Below, one piece after another: positions 2,102 to 22,473 of a stretch of 64,000 nt of DNA (position 1 is the first letter of the stretch; each line of letters opens with the position of its first letter). The notes beneath the pieces are model-generated. The model saw only the letters and a program-made list of their open reading frames with translations, had not been told where the DNA came from and did no database searches. A program made the position numbers and the translations under genes. Source of the stretch: Halanaerobiaceae bacterium ANBcel28 (GTDB taxonomy: Bacteria > Bacillota > Halanaerobiia > Halanaerobiales > DTU029); the NCBI GenBank assembly GCA_037623315.1, contig JBBJJH010000001.1, forward strand, positions 77,019 through 141,018, given 5' to 3'.

Positions 2102-2176
2102 TTAATTTACCCCTTTATTTACTTTTATTAATGTATATCAACTGCAATTAATCTCTACTTAAAAAGGTGGATTAAC

Positions 2177-3745: not shown

Positions 3746-3952
3746 AAAATCATCTCCCTTTTATATTTCTATTTAATATTATAAGCTAATTTTTCCTTTT
3801 TTACAACTAAAGATAATACTCAATTAAACCATATCTCTTTGCCCTTTCACTTTCTCCCTCGACTATCTTTTCCACACTTTGCATAAAATACTAAGCAGCC
3901 AGATTTACAGGAATTCAATCTATATCTTCCCTATAAACTGTAAATATCTTTA

Positions 3953-3998
3953 TTTGAAAAAAAGCCAGCCATTTATCCCTGTAAATGACTGGCTGAGT
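3953..3998 (-). terminator. rho-independent terminator ending the Wadjet/phd transcription unit
   Basis: Minus strand: CAGCCAGTCATTTA-caggga-TAAATGGCTGGCT followed by TTTTTTTCAAATA. Confidence 0.75.
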
Positions 3999-4079
3999 AG
4001 ATTGATTTGTATTATTCTTACATCTATAATATTTAAATAAGATTACTTTATCTGTACGTATAATTTCATACTTCATAAT

Positions 4080-4447: not shown

Positions 4448-5749
4448 TTAGATCAATTCCCTCTTTATATCACTGATAAGCTCATCAATAAGCATTTCCT
4501 GATATCCTGCCATAGTATTTTTCTTAAGATAAGCAGCAAGATCTTTCAGTTTTTCATTCTTCAAATTCGCCAGTTTACTCAAACTTTTCGCACTTATTCT
4601 TTCTTTAGAAAGGGTTTTTTCGTAATCAGGCAGACTATATCTCCACAGTACTAATTTATCCCTATACCTACTTTTCAACCTATCTGCTATGCCTAAACCT
4701 TCTGGATCAAAATCTCCTGAGTAATAAATAATCGTATCTTCTTTAACCAGCATATCCAGTAGCAAAAGTGATGCTAGCTTTAACTGACCACTAGTACAGA
4801 CTAGGGACAAGTTATCATTACCCAAACTATCTATGATACTTGAAAAAACAGCAGGGTTTTCAAGTACAAAAACTTTGTCAAGAGGGCTTACTATTCTCTC
4901 AATAGAGCTTAGATTTTTAAGAGAGAGCAGCAGCGGTTCTTTCCTTTTACTAAAACCCTTCCATCCCTGATGAATCTCTCCATTACTTTCTGCCTCCAGT
5001 CCATAACAGAGGGTGTAATTGGCTACTTCATTGATTAAGATACCAGCATTATAGAATAGCTCTGCCCTTTCTTCAGCATTATTGGGTTTCTCACTGTTAA
5101 ATTGATATACTAAAGCATATTGAAGTAGGATATCAAGGTCTGTACCATGGTCAAAGGCATGTGGATTTTTTGTAATCTGAGAAGCAAAAACTGCCAGACG
5201 TGTCTTTTTTCCCCCATGGATAGGCAAGTTGTTTAAGGCACGAGCAGTCTGATAAATATCTATCTTAAGTTTTTCTGAATCAATATTATATCTTTTTAAG
5301 AGAAGACTATAGGCATTGTTTTTATTAGAGTAAAGATCCATAAGCCACTTAGCTGCTGGTCTGCCTTCCACCTGATTTATAATTTTTCCAAAAAATTTTT
5401 TTCTCTCAGACAAGTAAATATATCGTTCTTGCTTATATGAAATGATCTCTTCTTCTAAAAAATATTCTTTCAATATATCTTCTAACAATATACCGTCAAA
5501 CCTTGTTCCCTGTAGGGCTTCCTCAAATTTTTCAAGTCTTATTGTGGCCTGTTTCTGCCTGCTATAATCCTTTCTAAAATAGCCTGTTAAAGCCTCTTTT
5601 TCCTGCTGGCTTAGATTGCTAAGAACTATTTTACCACCAATTTTTCCTAGTGATTTATATTTCTTTTTCATCTTCAAAAAAACCCTGGAAAAGCCAGGAT
5701 TTTTTTTAAAGTATTCAACACAGTCTTCTAGCAACTTATTATTATTCAT
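4448..5749 (-). CDS. jetD: Wadjet JetD (DUF2399/TIGR02679, Toprim-containing)
   Basis: Toprim-like motif IIYYSGDFDPEGLGIADRL near C-terminus; last gene of the jetABCD arrangement. Start taken at ATG 5749 (AGAGG SD 9 nt upstream); track start 5758 is TTG. Confidence 0.75.
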   Translation of the reverse strand: MNNNKLLEDCVEYFKKNPGFSRVFLKMKKKYKSLGKIGGKIVLSNLSQQEKEALTGYFRKDYSRQKQATIRLEKFEEALQGTRFDGILLEDILKEYFLEEEIISYKQERYIYLSERKKFFGKIINQVEGRPAAKWLMDLYSNKNNAYSLLLKRYNIDSEKLKIDIYQTARALNNLPIHGGKKTRLAVFASQITKNPHAFDHGTDLDILLQYALVYQFNSEKPNNAEERAELFYNAGILINEVANYTLCYGLEAESNGEIHQGWKGFSKRKEPLLLSLKNLSSIERIVSPLDKVFVLENPAVFSSIIDSLGNDNLSLVCTSGQLKLASLLLLDMLVKEDTIIYYSGDFDPEGLGIADRLKSRYRDKLVLWRYSLPDYEKTLSKERISAKSLSKLANLKNEKLKDLAAYLKKNTMAGYQEMLIDELISDIKRELI

Positions 5750-5804
5750 AACCATCAACCTCTGATATATTATATATAAGAAAAGTTAGGATCAATTTTG
5801 CAGT

Positions 5805-6209
5805 TTAGCCAATAGAAGCGACTGCTAAATCTAATGTATTAGCAGCTTTTATTAATCTTTTGTCTAAAGTTACTAAAGTAGAATTCTTTCTTCTGCAAGT
5901 AACTAAGTACATCGCATCATAAGCAGGATGATCAATTTTACATGATAGCGATATAGCTTCTTCATAAACATCTTCAGCTTTGATGAATTGATCTACTATT
6001 TCTGTCATTTGCCTTGTTTTAGTAAGCAAATCATCTAAAGGATAGTTTTGAATAGAATGATATTTCCACATTACATTAGATGCTTCATAAATATATAAAG
6101 AAGGAGCTATAATCCAATCAGCATCTTTTAGAATATCAATTAGTATTTTTTGTTTGGGTCTTCCCATGACTATTTCAACGGCAGCACTAACATCAATAGT
6201 AAAAATCAT
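5805..6209 (-). CDS. vapC: PIN-domain toxin VapC
   Basis: 134 aa; MIFTIDVSAAVEIV...EASNV...DAMYLV...TLDKRL: PIN acidic residues at canonical positions; 4-bp ATGA overlap with upstream antitoxin. Confidence 0.8.
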   Translation of the reverse strand: MIFTIDVSAAVEIVMGRPKQKILIDILKDADWIIAPSLYIYEASNVMWKYHSIQNYPLDDLLTKTRQMTEIVDQFIKAEDVYEEAISLSCKIDHPAYDAMYLVTCRRKNSTLVTLDKRLIKAANTLDLAVASIG

Positions 6210-6454
6210 CGTTCTCTATCCTCTCTGATAAGAGGAACAGGATCAAGAATATCTTGGGCTTTTTTATTACCAGTTTCATCTATAATACTGTTAAAGAAAA
6301 TTTTTCTTCGTTCTTTATTATGTTTTTCAATTTCTAAGGCTTTTTCAAGTAAAACAATAGTTTCTTGAGTTATACTTCTTCTTTCAGTTTCAGCAAGTTG
6401 AACAATTTTTTGATAGATATGTTCGGGTAAGTCTCTAACTTGTAAAGAAGGCAT
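6206..6454 (-). CDS. vapB: ribbon-helix-helix antitoxin VapB
   Basis: MPSLQVRDLPEHIYQKIVQLAETERRSITQETIVLLEKAL = RHH (CopG/Arc) motif; AAAGGTGG SD 7 nt upstream of this ATG (track start 6472 lies in the SD). Confidence 0.75.
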   Translation of the reverse strand: MPSLQVRDLPEHIYQKIVQLAETERRSITQETIVLLEKALEIEKHNKERRKIFFNSIIDETGNKKAQDILDPVPLIREDRER

Positions 6455-6536
6455 ATTGATTCCACCTTTCATATTTGTCTAGATATATTATAACATATTG
6501 CAAAGCTTCATGCAATGTGCATGAATAACAACACAG

Positions 6537-9500
6537 TTAGCTTACAAGTGTTCTCACATTACCATCCCATTGATAACGAATAACTGATACAACATCAGCA
6601 TTATTAGGCCTTACTAATTCACAGATAGAAAGTGATGGTACTGTATCATAATCACCCCATAATACCTGAGAGTTTATCACAAAACTAAGATCTAACTCCT
6701 CTAATAGTCTAAACATATCCCTGATATTATTGCTGTCAACACCAGCAAAAGCCTCATCAAGTGATATAATTCTCGGGCAATCCTTACGACCATTTTCATA
6801 GCGGGCATATACAGCAGAGAACAAAGGAACATACATGGCCATTGCCTTTTCTCCCCCACTAAATCTATTAAAGGCATTGTTTGTAAGTTCTCTTTTGGGT
6901 TCATTTGTTTTCTGATAATAGAGACGAAATTCAAACCATTTGCGGTAATCAAGGATATCTTTCATGATAGCATGGAAGGTCTGGTTTGATCCACTATCTT
7001 CCATCACCTTTCTGACTTCACTTATCTTTGATCTAAAGTGTGCAGATAGTTTTTTAAAATCCTCTTCTTTCAGAAGACTGGCTTCTGATTTCAATATCTC
7101 TACTAATTCCCGAGTATCCATCTGCTCCTCAGTTTCTGCTACTCTACTTTTCCAGCGCAGGCTAAATGACAAGCCACTTGAGGTGTCCATACTTTCCATT
7201 AACTTATTCATTTTCTTAACCCACTGTTCTGCATGATAGATCCTGGCTCTGATTTTTTTGCTAATAGTGTTTGCCAGAATATCTTCAAACAATTGACGAT
7301 CACTTTCTTTTAGTAATTGTTCATTTTCAACAATAGATTCTTCTATAAAATCAACAAGTGTATAAAAATTAACATCTTTACCTTTAATACGAGCAGTAAA
7401 TTCTAACCTTTTAAAGTCTTCTATCATTTGATTAATATCTAAATCATCTATTTGCTTTATTTCTTCTTGCCAATCATCTTTAGTAAATAGATGTTCAGCC
7501 ATTAAATTATACTCAGTCAGATATTGTCTGTTCTGATAATATTTATCTGTCAAACTAGTAATGTAATCTATTTTTGATCTTTTCTCATCATCTGATCTTA
7601 AGCTCTTATATACTCCCCTGGCAGATGCAAACAAATCCTCTTCGTCTTCTCGACTATAGACATATGCTAAATTAATTTCCTTTTCAAAGGACAATTTAGA
7701 GATAGTATCAATCTCTTTTGCTCTTAGAATCCTCTTTTCTAAGCCAGCTAAATTATTAGCTATCCTCTGATATTTTTCCTGAGAAACAGCAGATCTTTTT
7801 GACTCTTTTTGCAGCTCTTCAGGTATTTCTTTTAAGACATTTATACATTGGTCAATTTCCCTTTCAATTTCTTGATAATCTGTTTTCTCCAGGATCTCTC
7901 GATAGCTGGCTATTATCTCGCTATTTTCTTTCAACTCCCGCTCAAGCCTATTGAGATCATAGAAGAGGTTGTCTATATCCTGCAGAACATCTTCAATCTG
8001 CTCCTGGCCATTACTTAGCTGATACCTTTTATTGACAAGCAAGGTATGTTTGCTACTTAACTCACTTAAGTGATCCTTATAATCTTCAGCTGCCTCAAGT
8101 GCTTCCTGATAGGCATTCAGATTAAGTGGAAGATAAATTTTTGCCGTAATTTCCTGTACCTGTTCAGATACTTCTTTTAGCTTTTTATATATTTTTTCAG
8201 CTTCTTCTTCCTTGCGTTTGGTTTCCTTTTGATGGTTTTCTAAGCTCAAACTAGCATTTTGAAGCATTTTTAGTCCAGTTTCCAGGTCATCTTTTCCAGG
8301 AAATCTTCTAAACTCTTCCTGAATAAGAGCTAATAACTCCTGTAGTTTTTTAATTTTAATTATCTCTTCCTCTATGTGACTATTTAGATCTCTAATTTCT
8401 GCTTCTAATCCCTCAATAACTTGCTGGCGATATTCTTCGCGGGCTTGAACACCAATATACTTAGCCTCAAAAGAAGCACTGGCCTTTCCCCTTAAAATAC
8501 CAATGCTAAATTCACCCTTTTCATTAAGAAATGTTAGTGAATCCCCCTTATTTAAGACAATACTCTTTAGCGCCTGATCAATAATAGCAGGGGTAATCTG
8601 ACTATCTTCTACTTTTTCTGCCTTTAAGAACAATGAAAGTTCATGGGTCATATATTGTGGATTGGAAAATATATATTTATCAGCCATACCTCTATCCATA
8701 TTAAGGACATCTTCTTCGCGGTACTCCTCGGGAACAATTAAGGCATCCAGTAGTCCCATGTCTATTAAGGCCTCTTCTAAAACTCCCCTGGCTTCTTGAG
8801 AAAGATCATCGCGAAAATCAACTGCTTTATAGAAGGGTAGGAAAGGAATTCCTTCCTCAGCCAGTCTTTCACGATTGCGAAGAACCTTTTCTTCTCTAGG
8901 GGGTTCTGGATCCTTTTTCTTTTTCCATTCCTCCAATTCTTTTTCCTTCTCTTGAAGCTCTTCTTGATAGCTATCTATAGTTGCTTCTATACTGGAATTC
9001 TCTCTATTAATATTACTTTCCAGCAAAGATGTTTTCTTTCTAAGCTCTACAAGAATATCATCAAAACTAGACCCTTCACCATAGCTCCTTACTATTCTTG
9101 AAAGATTTTGCATTTCCTCTTCAGATAATTTCAGCAGTAAATTATTTTTTTCCCAGCGATAGACCTTTTCTAAATATTCATCACGGGTCTCATCAAATAG
9201 GGATTGTACTCGTTCAAGCTCTCTACTGGCATCATCTTTTTCTTTTTTTGCCTGATCAAGAATCTGTAAAGCACGATCATATTCTACTTTTTGCTTTTTT
9301 TCCTCTGCTAGCTTTTTTAGCCCCTCTGCTATCCTCTCTCTATATCTAAGCAACTCATTTTTTAAATAAGTAAAGTCATATTCCCGTGGAGGCTTTTGAG
9401 CTATTTCTTCACTGGCAAAAGAATGTTCATCAAACTTAAACTCTTCTGCAAATTCAGCCATCTCTTTTAGGATAGTATTAATCTCTTTATCTAAATACTG

Positions 9501-10640
9501 ATATTCTTCTTCAAGATTTTTGTATTGACTTTGTAATTTCTTTTCTCTTTCTTGCTTTTCCTCCAGGTTTGTCTTCTTAGCCTTGTGCCGTTTTTGCAAT
9601 TCCTTTTCTTTTTCTTCCCTTTTATCAATTTCAATTTTGGCCTGATAGCTATCATGTTTTTCCAATTTCTGTTTTTTGTGTTCATATAATGTCTGCCTAG
9701 AATTAAGTTCATCAATTTTCTCTTCAGCTTCTTTATAAGCTGAATGAAATTCTTCCATAGCATTTTGCTGTTTTTCCAATTCTTCCTTGCTATCTTTTAA
9801 CTCCTTTTGAGCATTCAGATAAGTTTTTGCTTTTTCTAATAAAAGAAATCTATTATAGCGGTCATATTCACTTTTCAATTTATCTGCAGCTGCTTTACTT
9901 TCTTTTAAAGCCTCTAGCTGGGTTTTAATATTATCCATATTCTCAATGGCTTCTGACATTGGCCGCAAATCTTCATCAGATAGTGGCTGGATGGCATTAT
10001 TCATAATGTCATATATAACAGTTGGCTTAAAATCCTTGGATAGTTTAGGTGTGCGCAATTGCACAAGTAGTTTAACCAATTCATCATATTCCTCTATATT
10101 TTCAAAACCAAAGAGAAGCTTATTGACCATTTCCATATAATTTCCCTGACTATCGTAAAATTCACCACCATTGGCAACTCGATTTCTCAACTCAATCTTA
10201 CTTAAAGGTACTTTGTCCCCCATTTCCTTATAAAGAAAGAAATCTTTTCCGATTCTTCTGCCATCAGTAAGAGAAAACCCCCAGGAATTTAAAGGTTTTC
10301 CCCGTCTAGCTTGAAATCCCATGCCAATAGTTAGATATCTACCTGAATCCTTTTTCGCAAATTCCATATATAGATAGCCAGTACGCTCATCCTGTCCATT
10401 TTCATCTTCTCCAAGTAGGTAATTGTCCATCTTTCGAGCTCTAGAGCCAAAAGGATCCAATCTTTCTGGACTCCTATTACCATCAAGCAAAAGTGGTATA
10501 AAACTCTGCATGGTTACAGACTTACCTGATCCGTTTGACCCTCTTAGTAATAATCTACCATTTGAAAAATGAAACTCTTCTTCATCATAATACCAAAAAT
10601 TAAGCAAGCCCACTTTGTTTATTATCCATTTATCCTGCAT
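6537..10640 (-). CDS. jetC: Wadjet JetC, SMC-like ATPase (TIGR02680)
   Basis: 1367 aa; Walker A RGSNGSGKSVTMQ at N-terminus; long coiled coil; C-terminal RFSGGEKAMAMYVPLF (signature-like) and ISLDEAFAGVD Walker B; 1-bp overlap with jetB. Confidence 0.85.
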   Translation of the reverse strand: MQDKWIINKVGLLNFWYYDEEEFHFSNGRLLLRGSNGSGKSVTMQSFIPLLLDGNRSPERLDPFGSRARKMDNYLLGEDENGQDERTGYLYMEFAKKDSGRYLTIGMGFQARRGKPLNSWGFSLTDGRRIGKDFFLYKEMGDKVPLSKIELRNRVANGGEFYDSQGNYMEMVNKLLFGFENIEEYDELVKLLVQLRTPKLSKDFKPTVIYDIMNNAIQPLSDEDLRPMSEAIENMDNIKTQLEALKESKAAADKLKSEYDRYNRFLLLEKAKTYLNAQKELKDSKEELEKQQNAMEEFHSAYKEAEEKIDELNSRQTLYEHKKQKLEKHDSYQAKIEIDKREEKEKELQKRHKAKKTNLEEKQEREKKLQSQYKNLEEEYQYLDKEINTILKEMAEFAEEFKFDEHSFASEEIAQKPPREYDFTYLKNELLRYRERIAEGLKKLAEEKKQKVEYDRALQILDQAKKEKDDASRELERVQSLFDETRDEYLEKVYRWEKNNLLLKLSEEEMQNLSRIVRSYGEGSSFDDILVELRKKTSLLESNINRENSSIEATIDSYQEELQEKEKELEEWKKKKDPEPPREEKVLRNRERLAEEGIPFLPFYKAVDFRDDLSQEARGVLEEALIDMGLLDALIVPEEYREEDVLNMDRGMADKYIFSNPQYMTHELSLFLKAEKVEDSQITPAIIDQALKSIVLNKGDSLTFLNEKGEFSIGILRGKASASFEAKYIGVQAREEYRQQVIEGLEAEIRDLNSHIEEEIIKIKKLQELLALIQEEFRRFPGKDDLETGLKMLQNASLSLENHQKETKRKEEEAEKIYKKLKEVSEQVQEITAKIYLPLNLNAYQEALEAAEDYKDHLSELSSKHTLLVNKRYQLSNGQEQIEDVLQDIDNLFYDLNRLERELKENSEIIASYREILEKTDYQEIEREIDQCINVLKEIPEELQKESKRSAVSQEKYQRIANNLAGLEKRILRAKEIDTISKLSFEKEINLAYVYSREDEEDLFASARGVYKSLRSDDEKRSKIDYITSLTDKYYQNRQYLTEYNLMAEHLFTKDDWQEEIKQIDDLDINQMIEDFKRLEFTARIKGKDVNFYTLVDFIEESIVENEQLLKESDRQLFEDILANTISKKIRARIYHAEQWVKKMNKLMESMDTSSGLSFSLRWKSRVAETEEQMDTRELVEILKSEASLLKEEDFKKLSAHFRSKISEVRKVMEDSGSNQTFHAIMKDILDYRKWFEFRLYYQKTNEPKRELTNNAFNRFSGGEKAMAMYVPLFSAVYARYENGRKDCPRIISLDEAFAGVDSNNIRDMFRLLEELDLSFVINSQVLWGDYDTVPSLSICELVRPNNADVVSVIRYQWDGNVRTLVS

Positions 10641-11794
10641 TATTCTCCACCTTCTATCTTAAAATCATCTGGATATTTACCTATAATCTTACCCACTAAA
10701 GGAAGTATCCTTATTTCTTTCCTACTATTATCTGCTTCTAACATACTAAAACTTTTCATATATACTATAAGCTCTTCTACTAGCTTTTCTATACTCATCT
10801 CTCTATAGCCTTTGCTCCAGCCTGAATGATAGCGCTGATGACAAAGAACTACTATATTCGCAAATTTGACCTCTGAGATAGTTATGGTATCATCTTCTTT
10901 TTTGCTAAGATCCCCTTCTTCCAGCATTTCTCTGATAATAGCATTCATCTGTAATACAATATCTGATATACTCTTATTATCAGGAAAAACATCTTTAAAA
11001 TATTTGCTTTCATCAAGAGAAATAAAGGCACCATTTTTATGAACATGGAGTTCACTTTCTAGCAGATCCTCTACATCTTTTTTTAGCATATTGCGATAGT
11101 TTTTTATATAAAGGTAATCAGCATCATCAACACCCTCATTATAGACTACAGGAGACATAAAAAGACGGCGGTATACCCTGTTGCGCCTGACCCTTCCCCT
11201 ATCTCGATCCAGATCCAACCATTCGCCTTTTTCGATATCTTTGTATGAGGAATAATTGCTTATATTTCCGGCAAAATTCAGCATAAAGTATTTAGAAAGA
11301 CCAGTGTTTTCATATAGTACCTCTTCTTCAGCTGAACTAATAAAATTAGAGTCACTACCATCATTTGTTTTTATAAGGAAAATATCTTCTGCAAAGCGAA
11401 GCACTTTTACAAGATGTCTGCGATGATTGTATAGTGTCCAATCAAGCTCTATATCTCTATCTTGTGGAAAAATAGCTTCAATAAAATCTGTCAGCTGTGA
11501 GAGTATAAACTGTTCTTCTGCTCCTTTATCCTCAAGAAAGGTCAACAACAAGGTTAAAAAGGCATATTCTAATTTGTCAGTGAATTCTTCAATACCCATC
11601 CAGGATTCTGGTTTACCAGGTAACTTCTCTAATTTTATAAGATAGGGATTGATTATAAGTCGATATCCCAGCCTGTCCTGTAAAAAAGTTTTTAATTTAG
11701 GATAGGCATCTTTTATTCGATAGTAAAGTTCTTTGTCTTCTTCCTTACTAATCCAGTATCTTTCCAGTAATATCTCCAGTTCTTTCATAAGCAA
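10640..11794 (-). CDS. jetB: Wadjet JetB (DUF2398/TIGR02678, MksE-like)
   Basis: 384 aa acidic protein sandwiched between kleisin-like jetA and SMC-like jetC in the canonical order. Confidence 0.7.
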   Translation of the reverse strand: MLMKELEILLERYWISKEEDKELYYRIKDAYPKLKTFLQDRLGYRLIINPYLIKLEKLPGKPESWMGIEEFTDKLEYAFLTLLLTFLEDKGAEEQFILSQLTDFIEAIFPQDRDIELDWTLYNHRRHLVKVLRFAEDIFLIKTNDGSDSNFISSAEEEVLYENTGLSKYFMLNFAGNISNYSSYKDIEKGEWLDLDRDRGRVRRNRVYRRLFMSPVVYNEGVDDADYLYIKNYRNMLKKDVEDLLESELHVHKNGAFISLDESKYFKDVFPDNKSISDIVLQMNAIIREMLEEGDLSKKEDDTITISEVKFANIVVLCHQRYHSGWSKGYREMSIEKLVEELIVYMKSFSMLEADNSRKEIRILPLVGKIIGKYPDDFKIEGGE

Positions 11795-11804
11795 TCCTTT
11801 CTCT

Positions 11805-13325
11805 TTAAACTACACTTTGTTCAATTTCTACTTCCTGTTGAATATTTTCGACCAAAAACATAATCTTATAAGCAGGCATGGTTAGATTCCCATCTTCACA
11901 TCTAAGGATACAATCTTGCTCATTTACTGGCTTAATTAATTTGAATTCTCGTCCATCTTCTGTCTTTGCTAAATTGTTATGAGATGCGGTAGCTTTCCCT
12001 ATCCATTTTAATAATGTTATTCGGACATGTGATGGAATGAGGGGTAATTCTGAAAAATCAATTATATTCTCCTGAATATAGCTATCAATTACCTCCTGCT
12101 CCTGCTTCCTTTCTCGAATATATATTTTAAGTAATTTTTTCTTTTTTTTGGACTTGTCCTCTATAGGAATTCTTTTTCTCTTTTCCCGATAACGTCTAAC
12201 TCGTGGTTTGATTTTTAATTCCACTGCTGCCTCATCATAGATACCACTATTAATACTTTCGGTTTCTCTATTGATATTTGCTTTGATGTGACGGCTTCGA
12301 AAAATACCAAAACTAAGAGATGATAATTTGTTTGCTTCGTCCATATCCTGACAGTCTAAAAACAACTCACAAAGTTTCCGATACTCCTCTTTCCGATTGG
12401 CAGCACTATTACGATTTTCAATAATCTGGGAAGCAAAGCGTGTAATTTTCCTGATAATTTCGTTAGTAATTTCGAATAATTTTACTGCCTCACTCTCAGC
12501 CTCTCCACTCCCTAGAAACCAATCGCGAAAGTTTTTCCATCTGCCGGCTATATTTTCTTCTAAATCTTGATCTGTGACTTCATTTTCCAGTCTAGGTATT
12601 GACTTCTCAAATTGCCATGCCTTCTTCAATACCTTTTCCACCTGAGAGTCACTAAGTTTTTTAATTGTTTCTTCTATAATATAAAGATTTTTCTGTAGCT
12701 CTTTAACAAACTCTCTTAAGTAATCTATGACAGCATCTTTATAAGCAATAAATTCCCGAGTTCTCATCATTTCTTCTGCTTTTATACTATAAAAGCTACG
12801 AATATAATCCTGATAGTTTTGATTCAAGCGTTTAAAGTCTGTATTTAAATCCCTCCACCAGAGACCTACAACTTTTAGATCCTCTTCTGCCATAGAGGAG
12901 AATTTCTGAACCTCATCTTTAATCCGCTCAAGCAAGGTGGGTTCCAGAGAAGCCCCTTCCACAAAAATATTCTCTAACTTAATAGTCATTCGCTCTATTT
13001 CCACAGAGTATTCGGAGAGTTGATATCTAAATTGCTTATTCCTGAATTCTTCTATAGTTGCCGATTTAGAGGTATCCTGCATAGCCACTAAATTACCCCA
13101 ATCCAACAAGACGTCAAGATCCTGCTTACACTGTTCCATAGTATAATCTTTAAAAATCTCATGTTTTTTTAATTCCTGAAAGACCTCTTCTTTATACATC
13201 CAGTATTTGATTTTTTCATATTGCTCATAGAAATACCTTAGTATAGGACGATAACGCCATGAGTTATCTGTATTAAGATATTTCACTTCTACAAGCGGCT
13301 TTGTCAGCTTGGAATTAATATTCAT
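11805..13325 (-). CDS. jetA: Wadjet JetA (DUF2397/TIGR02677, MksF-like kleisin)
   Basis: 506 aa, first gene of the jetABCD arrangement. Confidence 0.7.
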   Translation of the reverse strand: MNINSKLTKPLVEVKYLNTDNSWRYRPILRYFYEQYEKIKYWMYKEEVFQELKKHEIFKDYTMEQCKQDLDVLLDWGNLVAMQDTSKSATIEEFRNKQFRYQLSEYSVEIERMTIKLENIFVEGASLEPTLLERIKDEVQKFSSMAEEDLKVVGLWWRDLNTDFKRLNQNYQDYIRSFYSIKAEEMMRTREFIAYKDAVIDYLREFVKELQKNLYIIEETIKKLSDSQVEKVLKKAWQFEKSIPRLENEVTDQDLEENIAGRWKNFRDWFLGSGEAESEAVKLFEITNEIIRKITRFASQIIENRNSAANRKEEYRKLCELFLDCQDMDEANKLSSLSFGIFRSRHIKANINRETESINSGIYDEAAVELKIKPRVRRYREKRKRIPIEDKSKKKKKLLKIYIRERKQEQEVIDSYIQENIIDFSELPLIPSHVRITLLKWIGKATASHNNLAKTEDGREFKLIKPVNEQDCILRCEDGNLTMPAYKIMFLVENIQQEVEIEQSVV

Positions 13326-13379
13326 AATCTACTCCTTATTCATGAATTATATGTATAATTTTGTTAGTATTATATACTT

Positions 13380-13409
13380 TTCAATAATAATTATAAGTAA
13401 TAATAGTAT
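13380..13409 (-). promoter_or_regulatory. consensus sigma-A promoter of jetA (TTGACA-18-TATAAT)
   Basis: Minus strand: TTGACA (13409..13404), 18-bp spacer, TATAAT (13385..13380); about 55 nt upstream of the jetA ATG. Confidence 0.7.
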
Positions 13410-13532
13410 CTTGTGTCAAGGAAGTATAGAAGAAGCTCAGTGCAAAACAGCCATATTCGCTGTACTTATCAAGTTTAAAATTCTTTTACTTAAGTATTTA
13501 CATTTCATTTCAATTCTTACAAAAGGTTTAGA

Positions 13533-14090
13533 CTACCAGTTACTAATAATTCCCAGCTGTATAAATGCAACTGAAAGTAAGCTCAATAACCTATATTTAG
13601 AATTTCTTAAGTAATAATGCTCCTGCCTATTAAATATATCCATATTAGCTCTTGCAAAATTATCGACATCAAAGTCTATTTTTTCTCTTTCTAGATATCT
13701 TTTTAATTCATTTACAGCTTCCTTAATTGTCCCATCATTTATATTATTTATTTGCATATGATTATTTGCAACAAGAAATGCCTTTGTTTCTGTACCAAGT
13801 GAAAAAGCAAGATCACAGGAATTAATATAGAAGTTAGATATGCAATAGCTTTCTATTGATGGATAGCTTAATAATAAAACACCACCCCGCATATCATCGT
13901 TATCATATGGATCTCTTAATTTTTGAATTAATTCTTTAATAAATTCAATATCTTCATTTGATTCTGGATCTCTATCAAATAAATAATATATCGCTGTATT
14001 ATCAACAGGGAAACTGTATTTAGTTATTAATTCCTCATATAAATTATCTAAGTAACTATTTTGGTCTTTAATATAAGAAATTATTAAGTT
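13533..14090 (-). pseudogene. Toprim-like C-terminal half of an OLD-family nuclease, in a frame shifted relative to the upstream ATPase ORF; no in-frame ATG/GTG/TTG before residue 67
   Basis: I translated the minus strand by hand. The frame is open from 14090 (just after an in-frame TAA at 14093..14091) down to the stop at 13533, 186 codons. The only canonical start is the ATG at 13892. The 66 start-less codons contain IYYLFDRDPES (a DxD Toprim-like motif), and SYPSIESY lies downstream. Confidence 0.45.
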
Positions 14091-15238
14091 TTATCATAGT
14101 TTGGAAGCCCCTCAAAAATACCGCTCAAATACATTTTTTCTAAATTCTGAGCTAGTCTAGGTTGTTCATCAGAAAATCTCTTAACCCAACTACCTTCTGA
14201 TCCATTAAAATTAACAGAATAAACCTGATCAGGTCTTAGAATTGAAGTGCTTAATAAATTAGTAGAATGGGAGACAAAGAAAATTTGAGAAGAGATTGAT
14301 GATTTCATAAAGTGTTTAATCAATAATTCTTCTAGTTCATTATGAAATCCACTTGAAAATTCATCTACTAAAAGCATACCTTTCTTATTTATAATATTTA
14401 AAAAAGAAGGTAATATATTTAGCAGAGTTTGATTTCCTAATGATTCTTCCTCATAGGGAATAACTGTAGCTATATCTTTTCTTCTAAAAAAAACAGTTTT
14501 ATTATTATCTATAGTTCTTAAATTTACCTTTCCATCAGAAAATTCCTTAGAATATTCTATTACCTGGTCAAACTTATGCTTCTCAAAAAAACTATTAATA
14601 CTTGCAGTACCCTGGTTTTTTAAAAACTCATCTAATAATAATTCTTCTTTACCATAATGAATTACATCACTATCAAAAGCATTAATATATATCGAATTCT
14701 GTAAATATTCAAACCAAGTCTTTAATATTTCATTACCTGCAAATCTTGTATTGAAATATAATGTTCTTAAAAATAATGTTTTATTATCCAGATCATCCTC
14801 ATCGTAAATAGTTTCTTTTTCGTCAACTATATAAGACCGTGCATTAAGGCCCATTCTATCTAGTAATAACTTATCTTCTATATGCAATTTCTCAAAAATA
14901 ATATTCTTTAGTGGATTGTTTATCACTGAATATCTAATTTCTTTATCCTTTATCTTAAAATAATAATCAATAGAAAATTCTTCTTCATCAGAGAATAAAC
15001 ATTTATAAATTCTTGATTTAGTATTTTTTTCTCTAAATAGCATATCTAATAAAAATTTTATTGCAATAAGAATATTAGATTTTCCAGAAGCATTTGCACC
15101 AACAAACATTATACCTTTTAGTATACCATTATCAGCAACATTACTATCTTCTAAAAATCTATAATTAGTTCGAGAAAAATCAATTTCAGTCTTCTCTTTA
15201 AAAGATTTAAAATTTTTGATTTCAACTTTTGATAACAT
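14084..15238 (-). CDS. OLD-family / AAA_21-type ABC ATPase (N-terminal half of an Old/GajA-like nuclease)
   Basis: MLSKVEIKNFKSFKEKTEIDF...FVGANASGKSNILIAIKFL (Walker A), LLVDEFSSGFH (Walker B); ends ...LSGIFEGLPNYDKT*, where FEG resembles the first Toprim glutamate motif. Confidence 0.7.
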   Translation of the reverse strand: MLSKVEIKNFKSFKEKTEIDFSRTNYRFLEDSNVADNGILKGIMFVGANASGKSNILIAIKFLLDMLFREKNTKSRIYKCLFSDEEEFSIDYYFKIKDKEIRYSVINNPLKNIIFEKLHIEDKLLLDRMGLNARSYIVDEKETIYDEDDLDNKTLFLRTLYFNTRFAGNEILKTWFEYLQNSIYINAFDSDVIHYGKEELLLDEFLKNQGTASINSFFEKHKFDQVIEYSKEFSDGKVNLRTIDNNKTVFFRRKDIATVIPYEEESLGNQTLLNILPSFLNIINKKGMLLVDEFSSGFHNELEELLIKHFMKSSISSQIFFVSHSTNLLSTSILRPDQVYSVNFNGSEGSWVKRFSDEQPRLAQNLEKMYLSGIFEGLPNYDKT

Positions 15239-15365
15239 TGCTTCTCACCCCTCTTTTTTTCAATTATATCATACATTTCTTATTATGTGTAATTTTTTTA
15301 CGATCAATACATGTTATAATGTATTTTTTTTACTACTCATTAGGTGCTAGTCGTATTTTAATATA

Positions 15366-15412
15366 CTATGCAAAACAGCCAGCCATTTATCACATAAACG
15401 GCTGACTGTTTC
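15366..15412 (-). terminator. rho-independent terminator downstream of ywbE
   Basis: Minus strand: AACAGTCAGCCGTTTATGTGATAAATGGCTGGCTGTT followed by TTTGCAT. Confidence 0.6.
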
Positions 15413-15448
15413 TCCTGATCTAGCAAACGCAAACTATAAGATCTTTTT

Positions 15449-15649
15449 CTATTTAATTTCTTTAACCCTACCAACAATTCCATCCTCCAGCATTACTTTA
15501 ATTCCATGTGGATGACTGGAAGAATTAGTGAGTATCTTTTTAACCACTCCTTCAGTAAGATTACCACTTCTTTGATCCTGCTTTTTTACAATCTTTACTG
15601 TATCACCTATTTTAATGTCACTTCTATTTCTACCATCCATTTGCTTCAC
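15449..15649 (-). CDS. ywbE: YwbE family small protein (DUF2196)
   Basis: 66 aa; ...GDTVKIVKKQDQRSGNLTEGVVKKILT...GIKVMLEDGIVGRVKEI matches the YwbE signature. Confidence 0.65.
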   Translation of the reverse strand: MKQMDGRNRSDIKIGDTVKIVKKQDQRSGNLTEGVVKKILTNSSSHPHGIKVMLEDGIVGRVKEIK

Positions 15650-15706
15650 CCTTTTCTCTCTCTTCCATTATTCTATTGGAATTAATTTAAATCTAATATA
15701 CACTTT

Positions 15707-15736
15707 TTCTATAATAATTATAAGTAATAATAAGAT
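15707..15736 (-). promoter_or_regulatory. consensus sigma-A promoter of ywbE, near-identical copy of the jetA promoter module
   Basis: Minus strand: TTGACA (15736..15731), 18-bp spacer, TATAAT (15712..15707). Confidence 0.7.
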
Positions 15737-15838
15737 ATCGTGTCAAGGAAAGACAGAAAGCCCCAGTAAGTATTATTCCTTATTACTGGGGAACTTATTT
15801 TAAATAGACCACACATATACTTTAGTAATAATAAATTT

Positions 15839-16663
15839 TCATCCCAGTAATAGAAAATATCCAAGAACTATTAAACCCAAGACTATACGATACCAGCCAA
15901 AGGCCTTAAAGTCATTGTTCTTAATATAGACCAATAAGAAGCGGATAGCTAATATAGAAACAGCAAAGGCTACAAACATACCAAGTAATAAAAAGGCCAA
16001 TTCCATGCCAGTAAAATTAAAGCCAAACTTAAGAAGTTTTAAGGCACTGGCACCAAACATCACTGGTATAGAGAGAAAAAATGAATACTCAGCAGCTATA
16101 TGACGTGATGTACCAAAGATAATCGCGCCTATAATAGTTGCTCCTGAACGAGAAGTTCCTGGTATTAAAGCTAAGACCTGAAAAAGACCAATACAGAAAG
16201 CTGTTCTATAGGATAATTCTGCAAATTTGTTTACTCTGCTAATCATATATTTATTACGATTTTCTATAAGGATAAAAAGTATCCCATAAACAATCAACAA
16301 GATTGCAACAGTCTGATAATTATATAAATGCTCATTTAAAATATCATCAAATAAAAGACCAATAACTGCTGCTGGAATAACCCCTACTATTACCTTATAC
16401 CATATTTGTATTGTTTCCACTTTTTCCTCTTTAGTTTTTTTAGAAGTGAAGGGATTTAATTTATGAAAAAAAAGAAAAACCACTGCCATAATAGCACCTA
16501 ATTGAATAAGTACTAAAAACATCTCTTTAAATTCTGCAGATGCATTTAAGTGGATAAATTCATCGACTAATATCATATGACCAGTACTACTGACAGGAAG
16601 CCATTCTGTAATCCCTTCTACAATTCCTATAATAACAACTTTTAATAATTCCAATAAAACCAT
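15839..16663 (-). CDS. uppP: undecaprenyl-diphosphatase
   Basis: [21 protein letters not shown] signature; start moved to the MVLLELL ATG (AGGGGGT SD 8 nt upstream). Confidence 0.85.
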
Positions 16664-16788
16664 AGTATTTTTACCCCCTGATAGAGTTAATTTATACATC
16701 TTTCTATAATATATATGAAAGTGACTTATGTAATATCTATTCTAAGAAAGGATAATGAAGTATATTGAAATTATTAAATAATATCTTT

Positions 16789-16857
16789 TTACAATGAAAA
16801 ACAGCCAGCCATTATCCCTATATAATGACTAGCTGTTAAGAATTTTTATTGCTTTAT
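16789..16857. terminator. bidirectional rho-independent terminator
   Basis: AACAGCCAGCCATTAT-ccct-ATAATGACTAGCTGTT flanked by T-runs on both strands. Confidence 0.65.
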
Positions 16858-18306
16858 ATCAAAGTAGCCTAAGGTACCTTCAAATTCAAGAATTATATCG
16901 TCTCCATCTCTTGGCAAATATCCTAATTCCCATTCAATCTCATCCAATATGGGTTGCAAACTTTCATGAACATTAGTAACTCGTACTTTAAACTCATTTA
17001 TTGGAGAATACTCAGGAAAATGTTCATTAAAATCTAAATCAAATTCAAGTCCTATATTTAATAAAGAACTATCTAAGTCAGTATCATAGATCAGCATTTG
17101 CCCATCATTATGTTTGAAATTAAAATACAAATTATTAATACTTAATTCAGGGACTTCAGCATCCCACATACCTACTCCTATATCTAGACCCATATCAAAT
17201 AACAGCATATATGCTAACATTACTTCCGCTTCTCCAGTAAAGATAGTATTAAGTCCTTCTAGTGCAAGATTAATTTCTCCTTCAGGAAAAACAAAACTAT
17301 AAGGATCATCATCATATACTCCTGATAAATCAAATTCTAATAATAATTTATCAATACTATATTCTCCAGTACTACTGGCTTCTCCGAAAGATAGATCTTC
17401 GAATAGTAATTTTGAATTACCTTCCATTTCATAATTAATAAATTCTAAGTTATTAAAGCTATTACCACTGTAGTTTACAATTACAGAGTAGTTTGTATCT
17501 AAAAAAGTATTTGTAAAATTCATTCCATCAAAAATAATTTGCTTATTATTACTATCATGTCTAATATCAACACTCATTTTATCTATAGTGCTTAATTCAG
17601 CTAGCTGAGGAAAAGCAAATTCAGCTAATTCTTCTAATTCAGCATAATACATATCCATTCCCATAATTTTTATAGATAATTGCTGATCTTCATCTAGTAT
17701 AAGATCAGGATTCAACTCCATATCTTTATGTATATAACCATCAAATTCTAAATCAATCTCTTCAATACTAAATTCCGGTTCTTCTCTATATGAAGAAACT
17801 CTTACTCCTTTCATATTAAGAAAGAATTTATCTATTTCATCAATATCTCCTTCTGTTTCTAATATCTCTTTAAGCTTAGCATATGTACTGGAAAGAGTGA
17901 CTTTGTCTATGTCTAAACGATCCCACCTATCTTCAAACACAAGATCACTAATGACAATTTCACCAAAAGCAGCGTTAACTGTCAAATCTGAATAATCAAC
18001 ACTCATATCTAAAGTTCTTTCTATATCTTTAATATTAGTAGATAATATTTCTTCAACTTGATCTACTAAATTATTACTAATTATGATGTTAATTATAAAA
18101 AAAGCAGTAAAAACAAGAAGTAGTGCAACGCCTGTTTTAACAAGCTTCCTTTTCTTCCCTTTTTTCTTCAAACTCTCTTCCTCTTTTGAACTTTGCTCCA
18201 ATTGATTTCCACAATCTCTACAAAAATTATCATTAGTTTTAACTTCATTTCCACAATATGAACAATACGGCATTTTAATATTCCCCCTCCTAGTGTTATC
18301 ATACAT
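16846..18306 (-). CDS. zinc-ribbon domain membrane-anchored protein, unknown function
   Basis: N-terminal CSYCGNEV...CRDCGN zinc ribbon, a lysine-rich linker, one transmembrane helix, then a long acidic extracytoplasmic domain. Confidence 0.5.
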   Translation of the reverse strand: MYDNTRRGNIKMPYCSYCGNEVKTNDNFCRDCGNQLEQSSKEEESLKKKGKKRKLVKTGVALLLVFTAFFIINIIISNNLVDQVEEILSTNIKDIERTLDMSVDYSDLTVNAAFGEIVISDLVFEDRWDRLDIDKVTLSSTYAKLKEILETEGDIDEIDKFFLNMKGVRVSSYREEPEFSIEEIDLEFDGYIHKDMELNPDLILDEDQQLSIKIMGMDMYYAELEELAEFAFPQLAELSTIDKMSVDIRHDSNNKQIIFDGMNFTNTFLDTNYSVIVNYSGNSFNNLEFINYEMEGNSKLLFEDLSFGEASSTGEYSIDKLLLEFDLSGVYDDDPYSFVFPEGEINLALEGLNTIFTGEAEVMLAYMLLFDMGLDIGVGMWDAEVPELSINNLYFNFKHNDGQMLIYDTDLDSSLLNIGLEFDLDFNEHFPEYSPINEFKVRVTNVHESLQPILDEIEWELGYLPRDGDDIILEFEGTLGYFDIKQ

Positions 18307-18367: not shown

Positions 18368-18412
18368 TTCTCATAAAAAAACAGCCAGCCTATTCAAAAT
18401 GGCTAGCTGTCT
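18368..18412 (-). terminator. rho-independent terminator
   Basis: Minus strand: ACAGCTAGCC-attttgaata-GGCTGGCTGT followed by TTTTTTTATGAG. Confidence 0.7.
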
Positions 18413-18421
18413 ACTTAATCC

Positions 18422-21660: not shown

Positions 21661-22473
21661 TCACTCTACATTATCCCTTGGTGTATAATGTCTTTTTAAC
21701 CATTTACACAAACCATCTAAACCAGGAAAGAGTACTCTTTCTGTAATATTTGCCTGATCAAGTTTGTCCCTTATTTCCCACTTTAATTCTTTGGGAACTA
21801 GTATCTTCTTATATAAACCAGGATGCTTTTCTAACCACTCGTCTAATACTAGCTTGGGATCTGATAATACAGAAAAGAGAGCATACTGGTTGATTATTCT
21901 GCCACTTGAAGAAGGTGGCTCAAAAAAGAATAGAACTGGATCTTCAGAAACATTATTTAGTTCTATAAAATTATCAATCTCTTTATTTAACATCTCTGCT
22001 GTAAAACTATCTGCTGCTTCATTGTTTAATATGTTCAAAAGTCTTGCTGGTAATAATTTTTTTACTTCAACAAAATTAATACACCAGATAACACCATCTC
22101 TATCAAATTGATCTATATCTTTTGTTGCAAAATGCAATGCTACATAGGGCGAATACGTCCAATCTAGTAATCTTGTGGGCAAACCGTGATGTTGTGCTAT
22201 AGATAGATAATTCCAGAAACCCATTTCTCCTGTAAAAGAAGAACTTGAATATTTTATAAAGTTCCTCATTAAACTTTTTTCTAGAAATTCATACTCATCA
22301 CAAATAAGTTTTAGACTTGTTTTTAATTCATGTTTCTTATCAGACATTCCCCTATATACAAACTTAGAACGATACCTAGATATTTCCTCATTCCAACTAT
22401 CACTAAATAATTGTTCCTGGAGATCTCCCCAACTCTTAACCTCAATAACTTTGTCCATCAAATCCCCTTTCAT
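21661..22473 (-). CDS. FRG domain protein
   Basis: FVYRGMSD...AQHHGLPTRLLDWTYSPYVALHFA matches the FRG domain signature. Confidence 0.6.
   Translation of the reverse strand: MKGDLMDKVIEVKSWGDLQEQLFSDSWNEEISRYRSKFVYRGMSDKKHELKTSLKLICDEYEFLEKSLMRNFIKYSSSSFTGEMGFWNYLSIAQHHGLPTRLLDWTYSPYVALHFATKDIDQFDRDGVIWCINFVEVKKLLPARLLNILNNEAADSFTAEMLNKEIDNFIELNNVSEDPVLFFFEPPSSSGRIINQYALFSVLSDPKLVLDEWLEKHPGLYKKILVPKELKWEIRDKLDQANITERVLFPGLDGLCKWLKRHYTPRDNVE

What the first reader, a model, noticed from the sequence alone, without database searches (positions are those of the whole stretch)
13365..15755. Two near-identical ~60-bp consensus promoter modules bracket the OLD-like locus and drive jetA and ywbE
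The sequence ACTTTT.C.A.AATAATTATAAGTAATAATA..AT.T.GTGTCAAGGAA occurs at 13366-13415 and 15693-15743 at about 85% identity. On the minus strand each copy is a textbook TTGACA-18-TATAAT promoter plus about 12 nt of identical initial transcript. One copy sits in front of jetA and the other in front of ywbE, with the frameshifted OLD-like gene between them. This layout suggests the OLD-like gene was inserted with a duplication of the promoter region, or that one promoter cassette was copied. The ORF track's spurious plus-strand ORFs 13309-13614 and 15615-15803 share the peptide SIIIISNN because of this repeat.
Basis: seen in the sequence. Interest (0 to 1): 0.55.

Follow-up and report, generated by a model that had tools for sequence, protein, structure and literature searches.

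The report
Duplicated consensus promoter before jetA and ywbE
Two homologous copies of one textbook housekeeping promoter, about 46-65 bp long and 2.3 kb apart, sit in front of a Wadjet anti-plasmid operon and a small conserved gene (ywbE) in Natronospora cellulosivora; the repeat is real and not chance, but it is an ordinary case of a promoter being copied.

Summary
The repeat is confirmed. On the minus strand, 13368-13431 and 15694-15758 align over 65 nt at 83% identity. The core is 41/46 identical and includes a 22-nt exact block. This pair is the strongest dispersed repeat in the 64-kb window. The two copies are also the only perfect TTGACA-18-TATAAT sites in the window. Significant similarity is limited to about -39..+7, which is the promoter itself. 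One copy lies 64 nt upstream of jetA of a type II Wadjet operon, and the other 76 nt upstream of ywbE. No third copy was found in the window, in 185,579 species genomes or in JGI metagenomes. JetA relatives at 82% and 78% amino-acid identity carry an orthologous CTTGACA-18-..TTACTTATAAT promoter upstream of jetA, so the module belongs to the Wadjet lineage. The ywbE copy is therefore most likely the secondary one. The "insertion scar" reading could not be tested because no close relative of this genome is available. It also fits poorly: the repeats bracket ywbE plus the ATPase gene, and no recombinase lies between them. The "OLD-like" gene is an AbiLi-like AAA_21 ATPase with no detectable TOPRIM domain. 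It is frameshifted at an A4 run at 14089-14092. Overall this is ordinary and of low interest.

The parts
13368..13431 (-). Promoter module copy 1 (P1), upstream of jetA. The -35 TTGACA is at 13414-13419 and the -10 TATAAT at 13390-13395, with an 18-nt spacer. The predicted transcription start is near 13383, giving a 5' UTR of about 58 nt.
   Evidence: identical in an independent Logan contig of the same strain (L001)
15694..15758 (-). Promoter module copy 2 (P2), upstream of ywbE. The -35 TTGACA is at 15741-15746 and the -10 TATAAT at 15717-15722, with an 18-nt spacer. The predicted transcription start is near 15710, giving a 5' UTR of about 70 nt.
11805..13325 (-). jetA (type II Wadjet, DUF2397, 506 aa), first gene driven by P1. 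Its ribosome-binding site AAGGAG lies 7 nt before the ATG.
   Evidence: Pfam PF09660 E=1.4e-151; PADLOC JetA2 E=1.8e-205; identical to the NCBI protein of Natronospora cellulosivora
4448..11794 (-). Rest of the operon: jetB 10640-11794, jetC 6537-10640, a vapB-like/PIN toxin-antitoxin pair at 6206-6472 and 5805-6209, and jetD 4448-5758.
3952..4004 (-). Terminator hairpin after jetD, a member of the local T family.
15449..15640 (-). ywbE (DUF2196/TIGR03833, 63 aa; the true start is the ATG at 15640), driven by P2.
15365..15417 (-). Terminator hairpin after ywbE, a T-family member.
   Evidence: (D10)
13533..15238 (-). It is split by a frameshift at the A4 run 14089-14092; an A5 run restores a 568-aa ORF. 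GC content is 26%. It has its own TG-extended promoter at 15263-15291.
13440..13463 (-). Short terminator-like hairpin (ACAGC-7-GCTGT followed by TTTTG) after the ATPase gene, immediately upstream of P1.
   Evidence: read from the sequence; not detected by the scan or the nhmmer search
15750..15791 (-). uppP terminator (CCCCAGTAA...TTACTGGGG followed by CTTTCTGTCTT). Its T-rich tail runs into the upstream edge of P2.
   Evidence: read from the sequence

Best explanation
The two sequences are homologous copies of one housekeeping (sigma-A/sigma-70-type) promoter. Each has a perfect -35 and -10 hexamer with an 18-nt spacer, and each starts its own transcription unit on the minus strand. P1 drives jetA-jetB-jetC-(vapB/PIN)-jetD, and P2 drives the monocistronic ywbE. 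Each copy lies directly after the terminator of the preceding unit.

The module is native to this clade of type II Wadjet operons. In Natronospora, or in the donor of the island, a promoter-sized piece was copied about 2.3 kb upstream so that it now drives ywbE. The route may have been a local duplication whose flanks later decayed, or ectopic gene conversion. Purifying selection on promoter function has since kept about -39..+7 at 89% identity and kept the spacer at 18 nt despite changes in its 5' part, while everything outside has no detectable similarity.

Shown here: the repeat, its statistics, the promoter anatomy, the gene identities, and orthologous promoters upstream of jetA in relatives. 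Inferred: that both copies fire in vivo, the direction of copying (jetA to ywbE), and the mechanism of copying.
For: The repeat is real and unique in the window. The two copies are the only 12/12 consensus promoters in 64 kb. Homology is confined to the promoter core, with z=12.3 there and non-significant flanks. Other near-consensus promoters in the window do not share the spacer.

jetA relatives carry the same architecture upstream of jetA. L012 has CTTGACA-N10-TTATTACTTATAAT and L027/L028 have CCTTGACA-N13-TTACTTATAAT, all with 18-nt spacers. At the 34 non-hexamer positions, L012 and L027 match P1/P2 at 17-23 positions, against 10.7 +/- 3.0 for 207 control promoter-like sites. That places them in the top 2% to 0% of controls. 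P1 against P2 is 29/34.

The 20-base pattern shared with L012 occurs only 9 times in 241 million JGI metagenome records, all in unrelated contexts. Upstream genes of jetA differ in every relative, so only the promoter travels with the operon. ywbE homologues elsewhere have unrelated upstream regions. No Rfam RNA family matches the region.
Against: There are no transcription data, so activity of either copy is inferred from consensus alone. The direction of copying rests on outgroups for jetA only. No close relative of the ywbE locus exists, so an ancestral ywbE promoter of this type cannot be excluded. P2 is at least as similar to the L027 jetA promoter as P1 is (23 against 21 of 34), which gives no polarity. 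Two jetA relatives (L013, L026) lack a clearly matching promoter. The rest of the genome outside the 64-kb window could not be searched for more copies.
Confidence: 0.72

Rival explanations
1. Insertion scar. A DNA segment (the ATPase gene, with or without ywbE) was inserted at or next to a single ancestral promoter, and the event duplicated about 60 bp of promoter, leaving direct repeats at both ends.
For: Direct repeats bracket a 2.3-kb segment. The ATPase gene has a clearly lower GC content (26% against 33-35% for its neighbours). It is absent upstream of jetA in all relatives with data (L013, L026, L027/L028). The region is a defence island.
Against: The bracketed segment includes ywbE, a widespread conserved gene, and not only the ATPase gene. 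There is no integrase, transposase or recombinase between or beside the repeats. The copies are only 83-89% identical, with differences clustered in the spacer, and 46-65 bp is far longer than typical target-site duplications. The repeat boundaries coincide with the functional promoter rather than with an element end.
Confidence: 0.12
2. Shared operator. The conserved spacer and discriminator (TATTATTACT..TATTAT) is kept because a common DNA-binding regulator binds there, coupling expression of Wadjet and ywbE. This is not exclusive of common descent.
For: The 22-nt exact block extends beyond the two hexamers into the spacer and the discriminator. TTACT before the -10 is also kept in jetA promoters of relatives. 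The spacer length of 18 is preserved despite changes in its 5' part.
Against: There is no convincing dyad symmetry, only an 8-bp ATAATTAT palindrome that is trivial in AT-rich DNA (read from the sequence). No regulator gene lies adjacent. ywbE is not linked to jet genes in any relative. Recent common descent alone explains the identity.
Confidence: 0.08
3. The two copies belong to a genome-wide family of repeated intergenic promoter-bearing elements (REP/MITE-like), of which only two fall in this window.
For: The same 15-kb stretch holds a family of four homologous terminator hairpins, so short regulatory modules do recur in this genome. A Logan contig of the same strain ends inside copy 2, at 15708.
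Against: There are only 2 copies in 64 kb at up to 3 mismatches and no weaker blast hits. The 22-mer gives 8 unrelated hits in 185,579 species genomes, 9 unrelated promoter hits in JGI metagenomes and 1 in IMG/VR. The module has no terminal inverted repeats. The exact repeat (22 nt) is shorter than Logan's k=31, so the contig break is not explained by it.
Confidence: 0.07
4. Chance or convergent similarity of two strong promoters in AT-rich DNA.
For: Both hexamers are consensus, so 12 of the matches come from promoter function. The genome is 31.6% GC.
Against: 29 of 34 non-hexamer positions are identical, against 10.7 +/- 3.0 (maximum 21) for 207 control promoter-like sites. Zero matches are expected in shuffles. 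blast E=1.7e-10.
Confidence: 0.01

Closest known systems
Canonical sigma-70/sigma-A housekeeping promoter (TTGACA-17+/-1-TATAAT)
   Same: Perfect -35 and -10 hexamers, spacing within the 16-18 range, correct orientation, and 64-76 nt upstream of a start codon that has a good ribosome-binding site. Each copy sits just after the upstream terminator.
   Different: The spacer is 18 rather than the optimal 17. There is no TG extended -10 and no A/T-rich UP element. Activity was not measured.
Promoter duplication or promoter capture by local duplication or ectopic gene conversion (known in bacterial genome evolution; from my own knowledge, not tested here)
   Same: A promoter-sized DNA segment recurs in front of an unrelated gene nearby, with similarity ending at the functional boundaries.
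   Different: The mechanism and direction are only inferred here. No intermediate or empty-site genome is available.
Short dispersed intergenic repeats that carry regulatory signals (REP/BIME, Correia, BOX/RUP)
   Same: A short intergenic repeat carrying a transcription signal. A separate four-member terminator-hairpin family lies in the same 15 kb.
   Different: Only two copies are known. There are no terminal inverted repeats, no hairpin and no target-site duplication, and the module is absent from other genomes searched.
Type II Wadjet (JetABCD) operons
   Same: JetA2/B2/C2/D2 are all present in the canonical order. Relatives share the upstream promoter architecture.
   Different: A vapB-like/PIN pair is inserted between jetC and jetD. 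In the relative L013, jetC and jetD are adjacent.

Membership tests
Sigma-70/sigma-A promoter | -35 hexamer close to TTGACA and -10 hexamer close to TATAAT | tested here: met
   6/6 plus 6/6 in both copies; they are the only 12/12 sites in 64 kb
Sigma-70/sigma-A promoter | Spacer of 16-18 nt | tested here: met
   18 nt in both copies and in the jetA promoters of L012 and L027/L028
Sigma-70/sigma-A promoter | Placed upstream of, and co-oriented with, a gene that has a ribosome-binding site, with no terminator in between | tested here: met
   The -10 ends 64 nt before the jetA ATG and 76 nt before the ywbE ATG. The terminator scan finds none in between.
Sigma-70/sigma-A promoter | Transcription initiates there in vivo | not testable with these tools
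   Needs 5'-RACE, dRNA-seq or Cappable-seq
Wadjet type II (JetABCD) | JetA (DUF2397), JetB (DUF2398), JetC (SMC-like ATPase) and JetD (DUF3323+DUF2399) encoded together | tested here: met
   Pfam; PADLOC JetA2 1.8e-205, JetB2 8.1e-152, JetC2 E=0, JetD2 3.6e-155. The operon is interrupted by a vapB-like/PIN pair.
YwbE family (TIGR03833 / DUF2196) | Score above the curated cutoff of the family model | tested here: met
   TIGR03833 at 109 bits against a cutoff of 63.4; PF09962 at 106.8 bits against 25
OLD-family nuclease | N-terminal ABC-type ATPase | tested here: met
   AAA_21 2.5e-20 and AAA_15 2.1e-9
OLD-family nuclease | C-terminal TOPRIM nuclease domain | tested here: not met
   The repaired 568-aa protein has no TOPRIM, OLD or RloB hit in Pfam at E<=1, NCBIfam or PDB sequences. 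The PADLOC ATPase-Toprim_I-B model matches only the ATPase part, residues 271-355. The AF2 model of the C-terminal 185 aa was unusable, with pLDDT 40.
AbiL (AbiLi ATPase + AbiLii) | AbiLi-type ATPase | tested here: met
   PADLOC AbiLi E=1.6e-45 over residues 1-391
AbiL (AbiLi ATPase + AbiLii) | Partner AbiLii/RloB-like protein | tested here: inconclusive
   There is no separate partner gene. The fused C-terminal 185 aa has a DRD motif but no family hit.
Insertion scar / att-type or target-site duplication | Direct repeats flank a segment that encodes or adjoins a recombinase or transposase | tested here: not met
   Only ywbE and the ATPase gene lie between the repeats
Insertion scar / att-type or target-site duplication | An empty site with a single copy in a close relative | not testable with these tools
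   No close relative found. The best ywbE (85%) and uppP (81%) homologues are not syntenic.
Dispersed repeat family (REP/MITE-like) | Many copies per genome | tested here: inconclusive
   2 copies in the 64-kb window. There are no related copies in the GTDB species genomes, JGI metagenomes or IMG/VR.

The most novel reading that the evidence does not exclude
The promoter of an incoming Wadjet defence operon was copied onto a neighbouring conserved host gene (ywbE), and the unusually well-kept spacer and discriminator is a shared operator. Under this reading YwbE and Wadjet are co-regulated and perhaps functionally linked. Together with the local family of four homologous terminators, it would indicate active shuffling of regulatory modules within this defence island.
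Probability: 0.07. Interest if true: 0.45.

Novelty: new member of a known kind. Interest (0 to 1): 0.18.

Why it matters
The practical value is modest. The result gives two well-defined, probably strong promoters in a barely studied haloalkaliphilic anaerobe, Natronospora cellulosivora, which could be useful for annotation or as genetic parts. It also shows that this clade of type II Wadjet operons carries its own conserved consensus promoter, consistent with constitutive expression. It is a small, clean example of a promoter-sized segment being reused for a neighbouring gene. It does not open a new question unless a regulator is found to bind the shared spacer.

Tried and rejected
- **Whole-collection scans.** I scanned for the 22-mer in genome contigs (8 unrelated hits; the Clostridium cavendishii hit is part of an unrelated inverted repeat near a membrane-protein gene start) and in viral contigs (1 hit). 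I scanned metagenome contigs for TTGACA-N10-TTATTACTTATAAT and got 9 hits in unrelated organisms at 24-52% GC. None helps trace the history.
- **Synteny search.** Exact or close protein look-ups for ywbE (L023-L025) and uppP (L029/L030) showed no synteny and no similar promoter.
- **Plasmid search.** A search with 13340-15800 matched only the ywbE coding sequence.
- **Rfam.** No RNA family matched 12800-16900 at E<=1.
- **Structure prediction.** The single-sequence AlphaFold model of the ATPase C-terminal domain had pLDDT 40, so I did not run a fold search.
- **Operator idea.** I looked for dyad symmetry and found nothing beyond an 8-bp AT palindrome.
- **Polarity from outgroups.** Positions where P1 and P2 differ are not resolved by L012/L027.
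- **Contig break as evidence of extra copies.** Rejected, because the exact repeat (22 nt) is shorter than k=31.
- **Terminator at 13440-13463 as a T-family member.** The partial match ATGGCTG..TTTTGCA is not significant by nhmmer.
- **Literature.** I found nothing on Wadjet promoters, YwbE function or this genome's regulation.
Full report
**Observation.** The repeat finder reports 13378-13431 and 15705-15758 as a 54-nt direct repeat at 85% identity, spaced 2327 nt apart. blastn-short gives 41/46 identities with E=1.7e-9. In a self-comparison of the whole window, the pair 13368-13431 / 15694-15758 (65 nt, 83%, one 1-nt gap, E=1.7e-10) is the strongest dispersed repeat in all 64 kb. A 36-nt degenerate pattern derived from the two copies matches exactly twice at up to 3 mismatches, against 0.00 expected from shuffles.

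Read on the minus strand, both copies are TTCCTTGACAC-...-TATTATTACT-TATAAT-TATTAT. That is a perfect TTGACA, an 18-nt spacer and a perfect TATAAT. They are the only 12/12 matches in the window. The spurious plus-strand ORFs do share FSIIIISNN.

Segment-wise permutation tests show that significant similarity is confined to about -39..+7 (z=12.3). The 'identical initial transcript', the rest of the 5' UTRs and the upstream regions are not significant on their own. The repeated unit is therefore a promoter and nothing more.

**Context.** The window comes from Natronospora cellulosivora (Halanaerobiales). Its JetA, YwbE and UppP proteins are 100% identical to NCBI proteins of that species on a 262,599-bp contig. 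All relevant genes are on the minus strand. In transcription order they are:
- uppP (15839-16699), followed by its terminator hairpin (15761-15791).
- P2, then ywbE (true start ATG 15640, 63 aa, TIGR03833/DUF2196), then a terminator (15365-15417).
- A TG-extended promoter (15263-15291) driving an AAA_21 ATPase gene (15238-13533), followed by a short hairpin (13440-13463).
- P1, then jetA (13325-11805), jetB, jetC, a vapB-like/PIN pair, jetD, and a terminator (3952-4004).

PADLOC and Pfam identify a complete type II Wadjet system: JetA2 1.8e-205, JetB2 8.1e-152, JetC2 E=0, JetD2 3.6e-155. Each promoter copy therefore opens its own transcription unit, directly after the preceding terminator and 64 or 76 nt before a start codon with a good ribosome-binding site.

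**The 'OLD-like' gene.** It is frameshifted. Frame 0 stops after ...PNYDKT, and the reading continues in another frame. Adding one A to the A4 run at 14089-14092 restores a 568-aa ORF. The repaired protein matches AAA_21 and AAA_15, and its best match is PADLOC AbiLi (1.6e-45, residues 1-391). The C-terminal 185 aa has no TOPRIM, OLD or RloB match in Pfam at E<=1, in NCBIfam or in PDB sequences. A single-sequence AlphaFold model was unusable, with pLDDT 40. 'OLD-like' is thus correct only in that the protein shares the ABC-type ATPase head. The defining TOPRIM domain was tested and not found. The gene's GC content is 26%, against 33-35% for ywbE and the jet genes.

**Copy number elsewhere.** The window has no third copy, and other near-consensus promoters in it have unrelated spacers. 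The exact 22-mer occurs 8 times in 185,579 species genomes, all in unrelated contexts. This genome is not in that collection. The 22-mer occurs once in IMG/VR. The pattern TTGACA-N10-TTATTACTTATAAT occurs 9 times in 241 million JGI metagenome records, in organisms of 24-52% GC with unrelated flanks.

**Relatives.** The same strain's Logan contigs (L001, L002) are exact substrings of the window, and L001 confirms copy 1. For jetA, five homologues gave upstream sequence:
- L012 (82% amino-acid identity) has CTTGACA-N10-TTATTACTTATAAT at about the same distance from the start codon as in the window.
- L027/L028 (78%) have CCTTGACA-N13-TTACTTATAAT.
- L013 (87%) has a different near-consensus promoter, TTTACA-17-TATAAT, further upstream. 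Its start codon is ATA.
- L026 (78%) shows only a terminator and a short gap.
- L011 (89%) has just 30 nt of upstream sequence.

At the 34 non-hexamer positions of the 46-nt core, P1 and P2 match each other at 29. L012 matches them at 17-18 and L027 at 21-23. By comparison, 207 control promoter-like sites with the same spacing score 10.7 +/- 3.0, with a maximum of 21. The jetA promoters of relatives are therefore orthologous to the module. The genes upstream of jetA differ in every relative: a 574-aa secreted-type protein in L027/L028, another gene in L013, and never the ATPase or ywbE. The module thus travels with the Wadjet operon.

For ywbE (best homologues 83-85%) and uppP (best 79-81%), the contexts are not syntenic and the upstream DNA is unrelated. 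No genome close enough to show an 'empty site' exists in the collections.

**Interpretation.** Chance or convergence is excluded. The most economical reading is common descent of two functional sigma-A-type promoters. The jetA copy is native and the ywbE copy was derived after this Wadjet lineage split from the L012 and L027 lineages, because P1 and P2 are much closer to each other (41/46) than to either outgroup (29-35/46). Positions at which P1 and P2 differ are not resolved by the outgroups, so the polarity rests on the observation that only jetA carries this promoter in other organisms.

The differences between the copies cluster in the 5' part of the spacer, while the 18-nt length is kept. 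Similarity stops at the functional boundaries. Both features fit selection for promoter function in both copies.

The insertion-scar model is not excluded, but it fits less well. The repeats enclose ywbE as well as the ATPase gene, no recombinase is present, and the repeat is long and imperfect. A shared-operator model has no positive evidence, since there is no dyad, no adjacent regulator and no ywbE-jet linkage elsewhere. A genome-wide repeat family remains possible only because the rest of the genome could not be searched.

**Comparison with known systems, and novelty.** These are canonical housekeeping promoters. The gene systems are a type II Wadjet operon, a YwbE-family gene and an AbiLi-like ATPase pseudogene. 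Promoter duplication or capture is a known kind of event; that statement is from my own knowledge and was not tested here. Nothing here departs from known kinds. Interest is low. The main useful results are the corrected anatomy, the evidence that this Wadjet clade carries a conserved consensus promoter, and the side observations listed separately.

Noticed in passing
window 3952-4004, 15365-15417, 16791-16841, 18372-18416 (all minus strand): A family of four homologous terminator hairpins (..CAGC(C/T)AG(T/C)CATT-loop-ATGGCTGGCTGTTTT..). nhmmer E-values run from 4e-13 to 8e-9, and the loop sequence is also conserved, so the members share an origin rather than converging. All four lie in the first 19 kb, with none in 19-64 kb and none in the relatives' loci. 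They follow jetD, ywbE, a zinc-ribbon gene and an MBL/HHH gene. The jet and ywbE units therefore share both promoter type and terminator type.
   Followed up: partly
window 5805-6472 (minus strand): A toxin-antitoxin-like pair lies between jetC and jetD: an 88-aa ORF at 6206-6472 that looks by eye like a ribbon-helix-helix antitoxin (not checked against any family library), and a PIN-domain protein at 5805-6209 (PF01850, 2.3e-8). In the relative L013, jetC and jetD are adjacent.
   Followed up: partly
window 14089-14092: The frameshift in the AbiLi-like ATPase gene maps to an A4 run, and A5 would restore a 568-aa ORF. The independent Logan contigs of the same strain do not cover this site, so a sequencing error is not excluded.
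   Followed up: partly
window 13536-14090 (minus strand): The C-terminal 185 aa of the repaired ATPase has no match in Pfam, NCBIfam, PADLOC or PDB sequences. It contains a DRD motif after a predicted strand (YYLFDRD), which might indicate a degenerate TOPRIM/RloB-like fold. The AlphaFold single-sequence model was too poor to test this.
   Followed up: partly
L013:277-300: The closest jetA homologue with upstream sequence (87% amino-acid identity) has ATA in place of the ATG start codon. The gene caller therefore truncated it to 434 aa. This may be a pseudogene or an unusual start.
   Followed up: no
window 746-3745 and 21661-22473 (minus strand): Further defence-island-type genes flank the region: an AAA_22/AAA_35 STAND-like ATPase at 2177-3745 (weak PADLOC PDC-S01 hit), a PRiA4_ORF3-domain protein at 746-2101, and an FRG-domain protein at 21661-22473.
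   Followed up: no
window 15839-16699: The longest uppP ORF is 286 aa, but the NCBI-annotated protein and all homologues are about 274 aa. The real start is therefore about 12 codons downstream of the ORF start.
   Followed up: no
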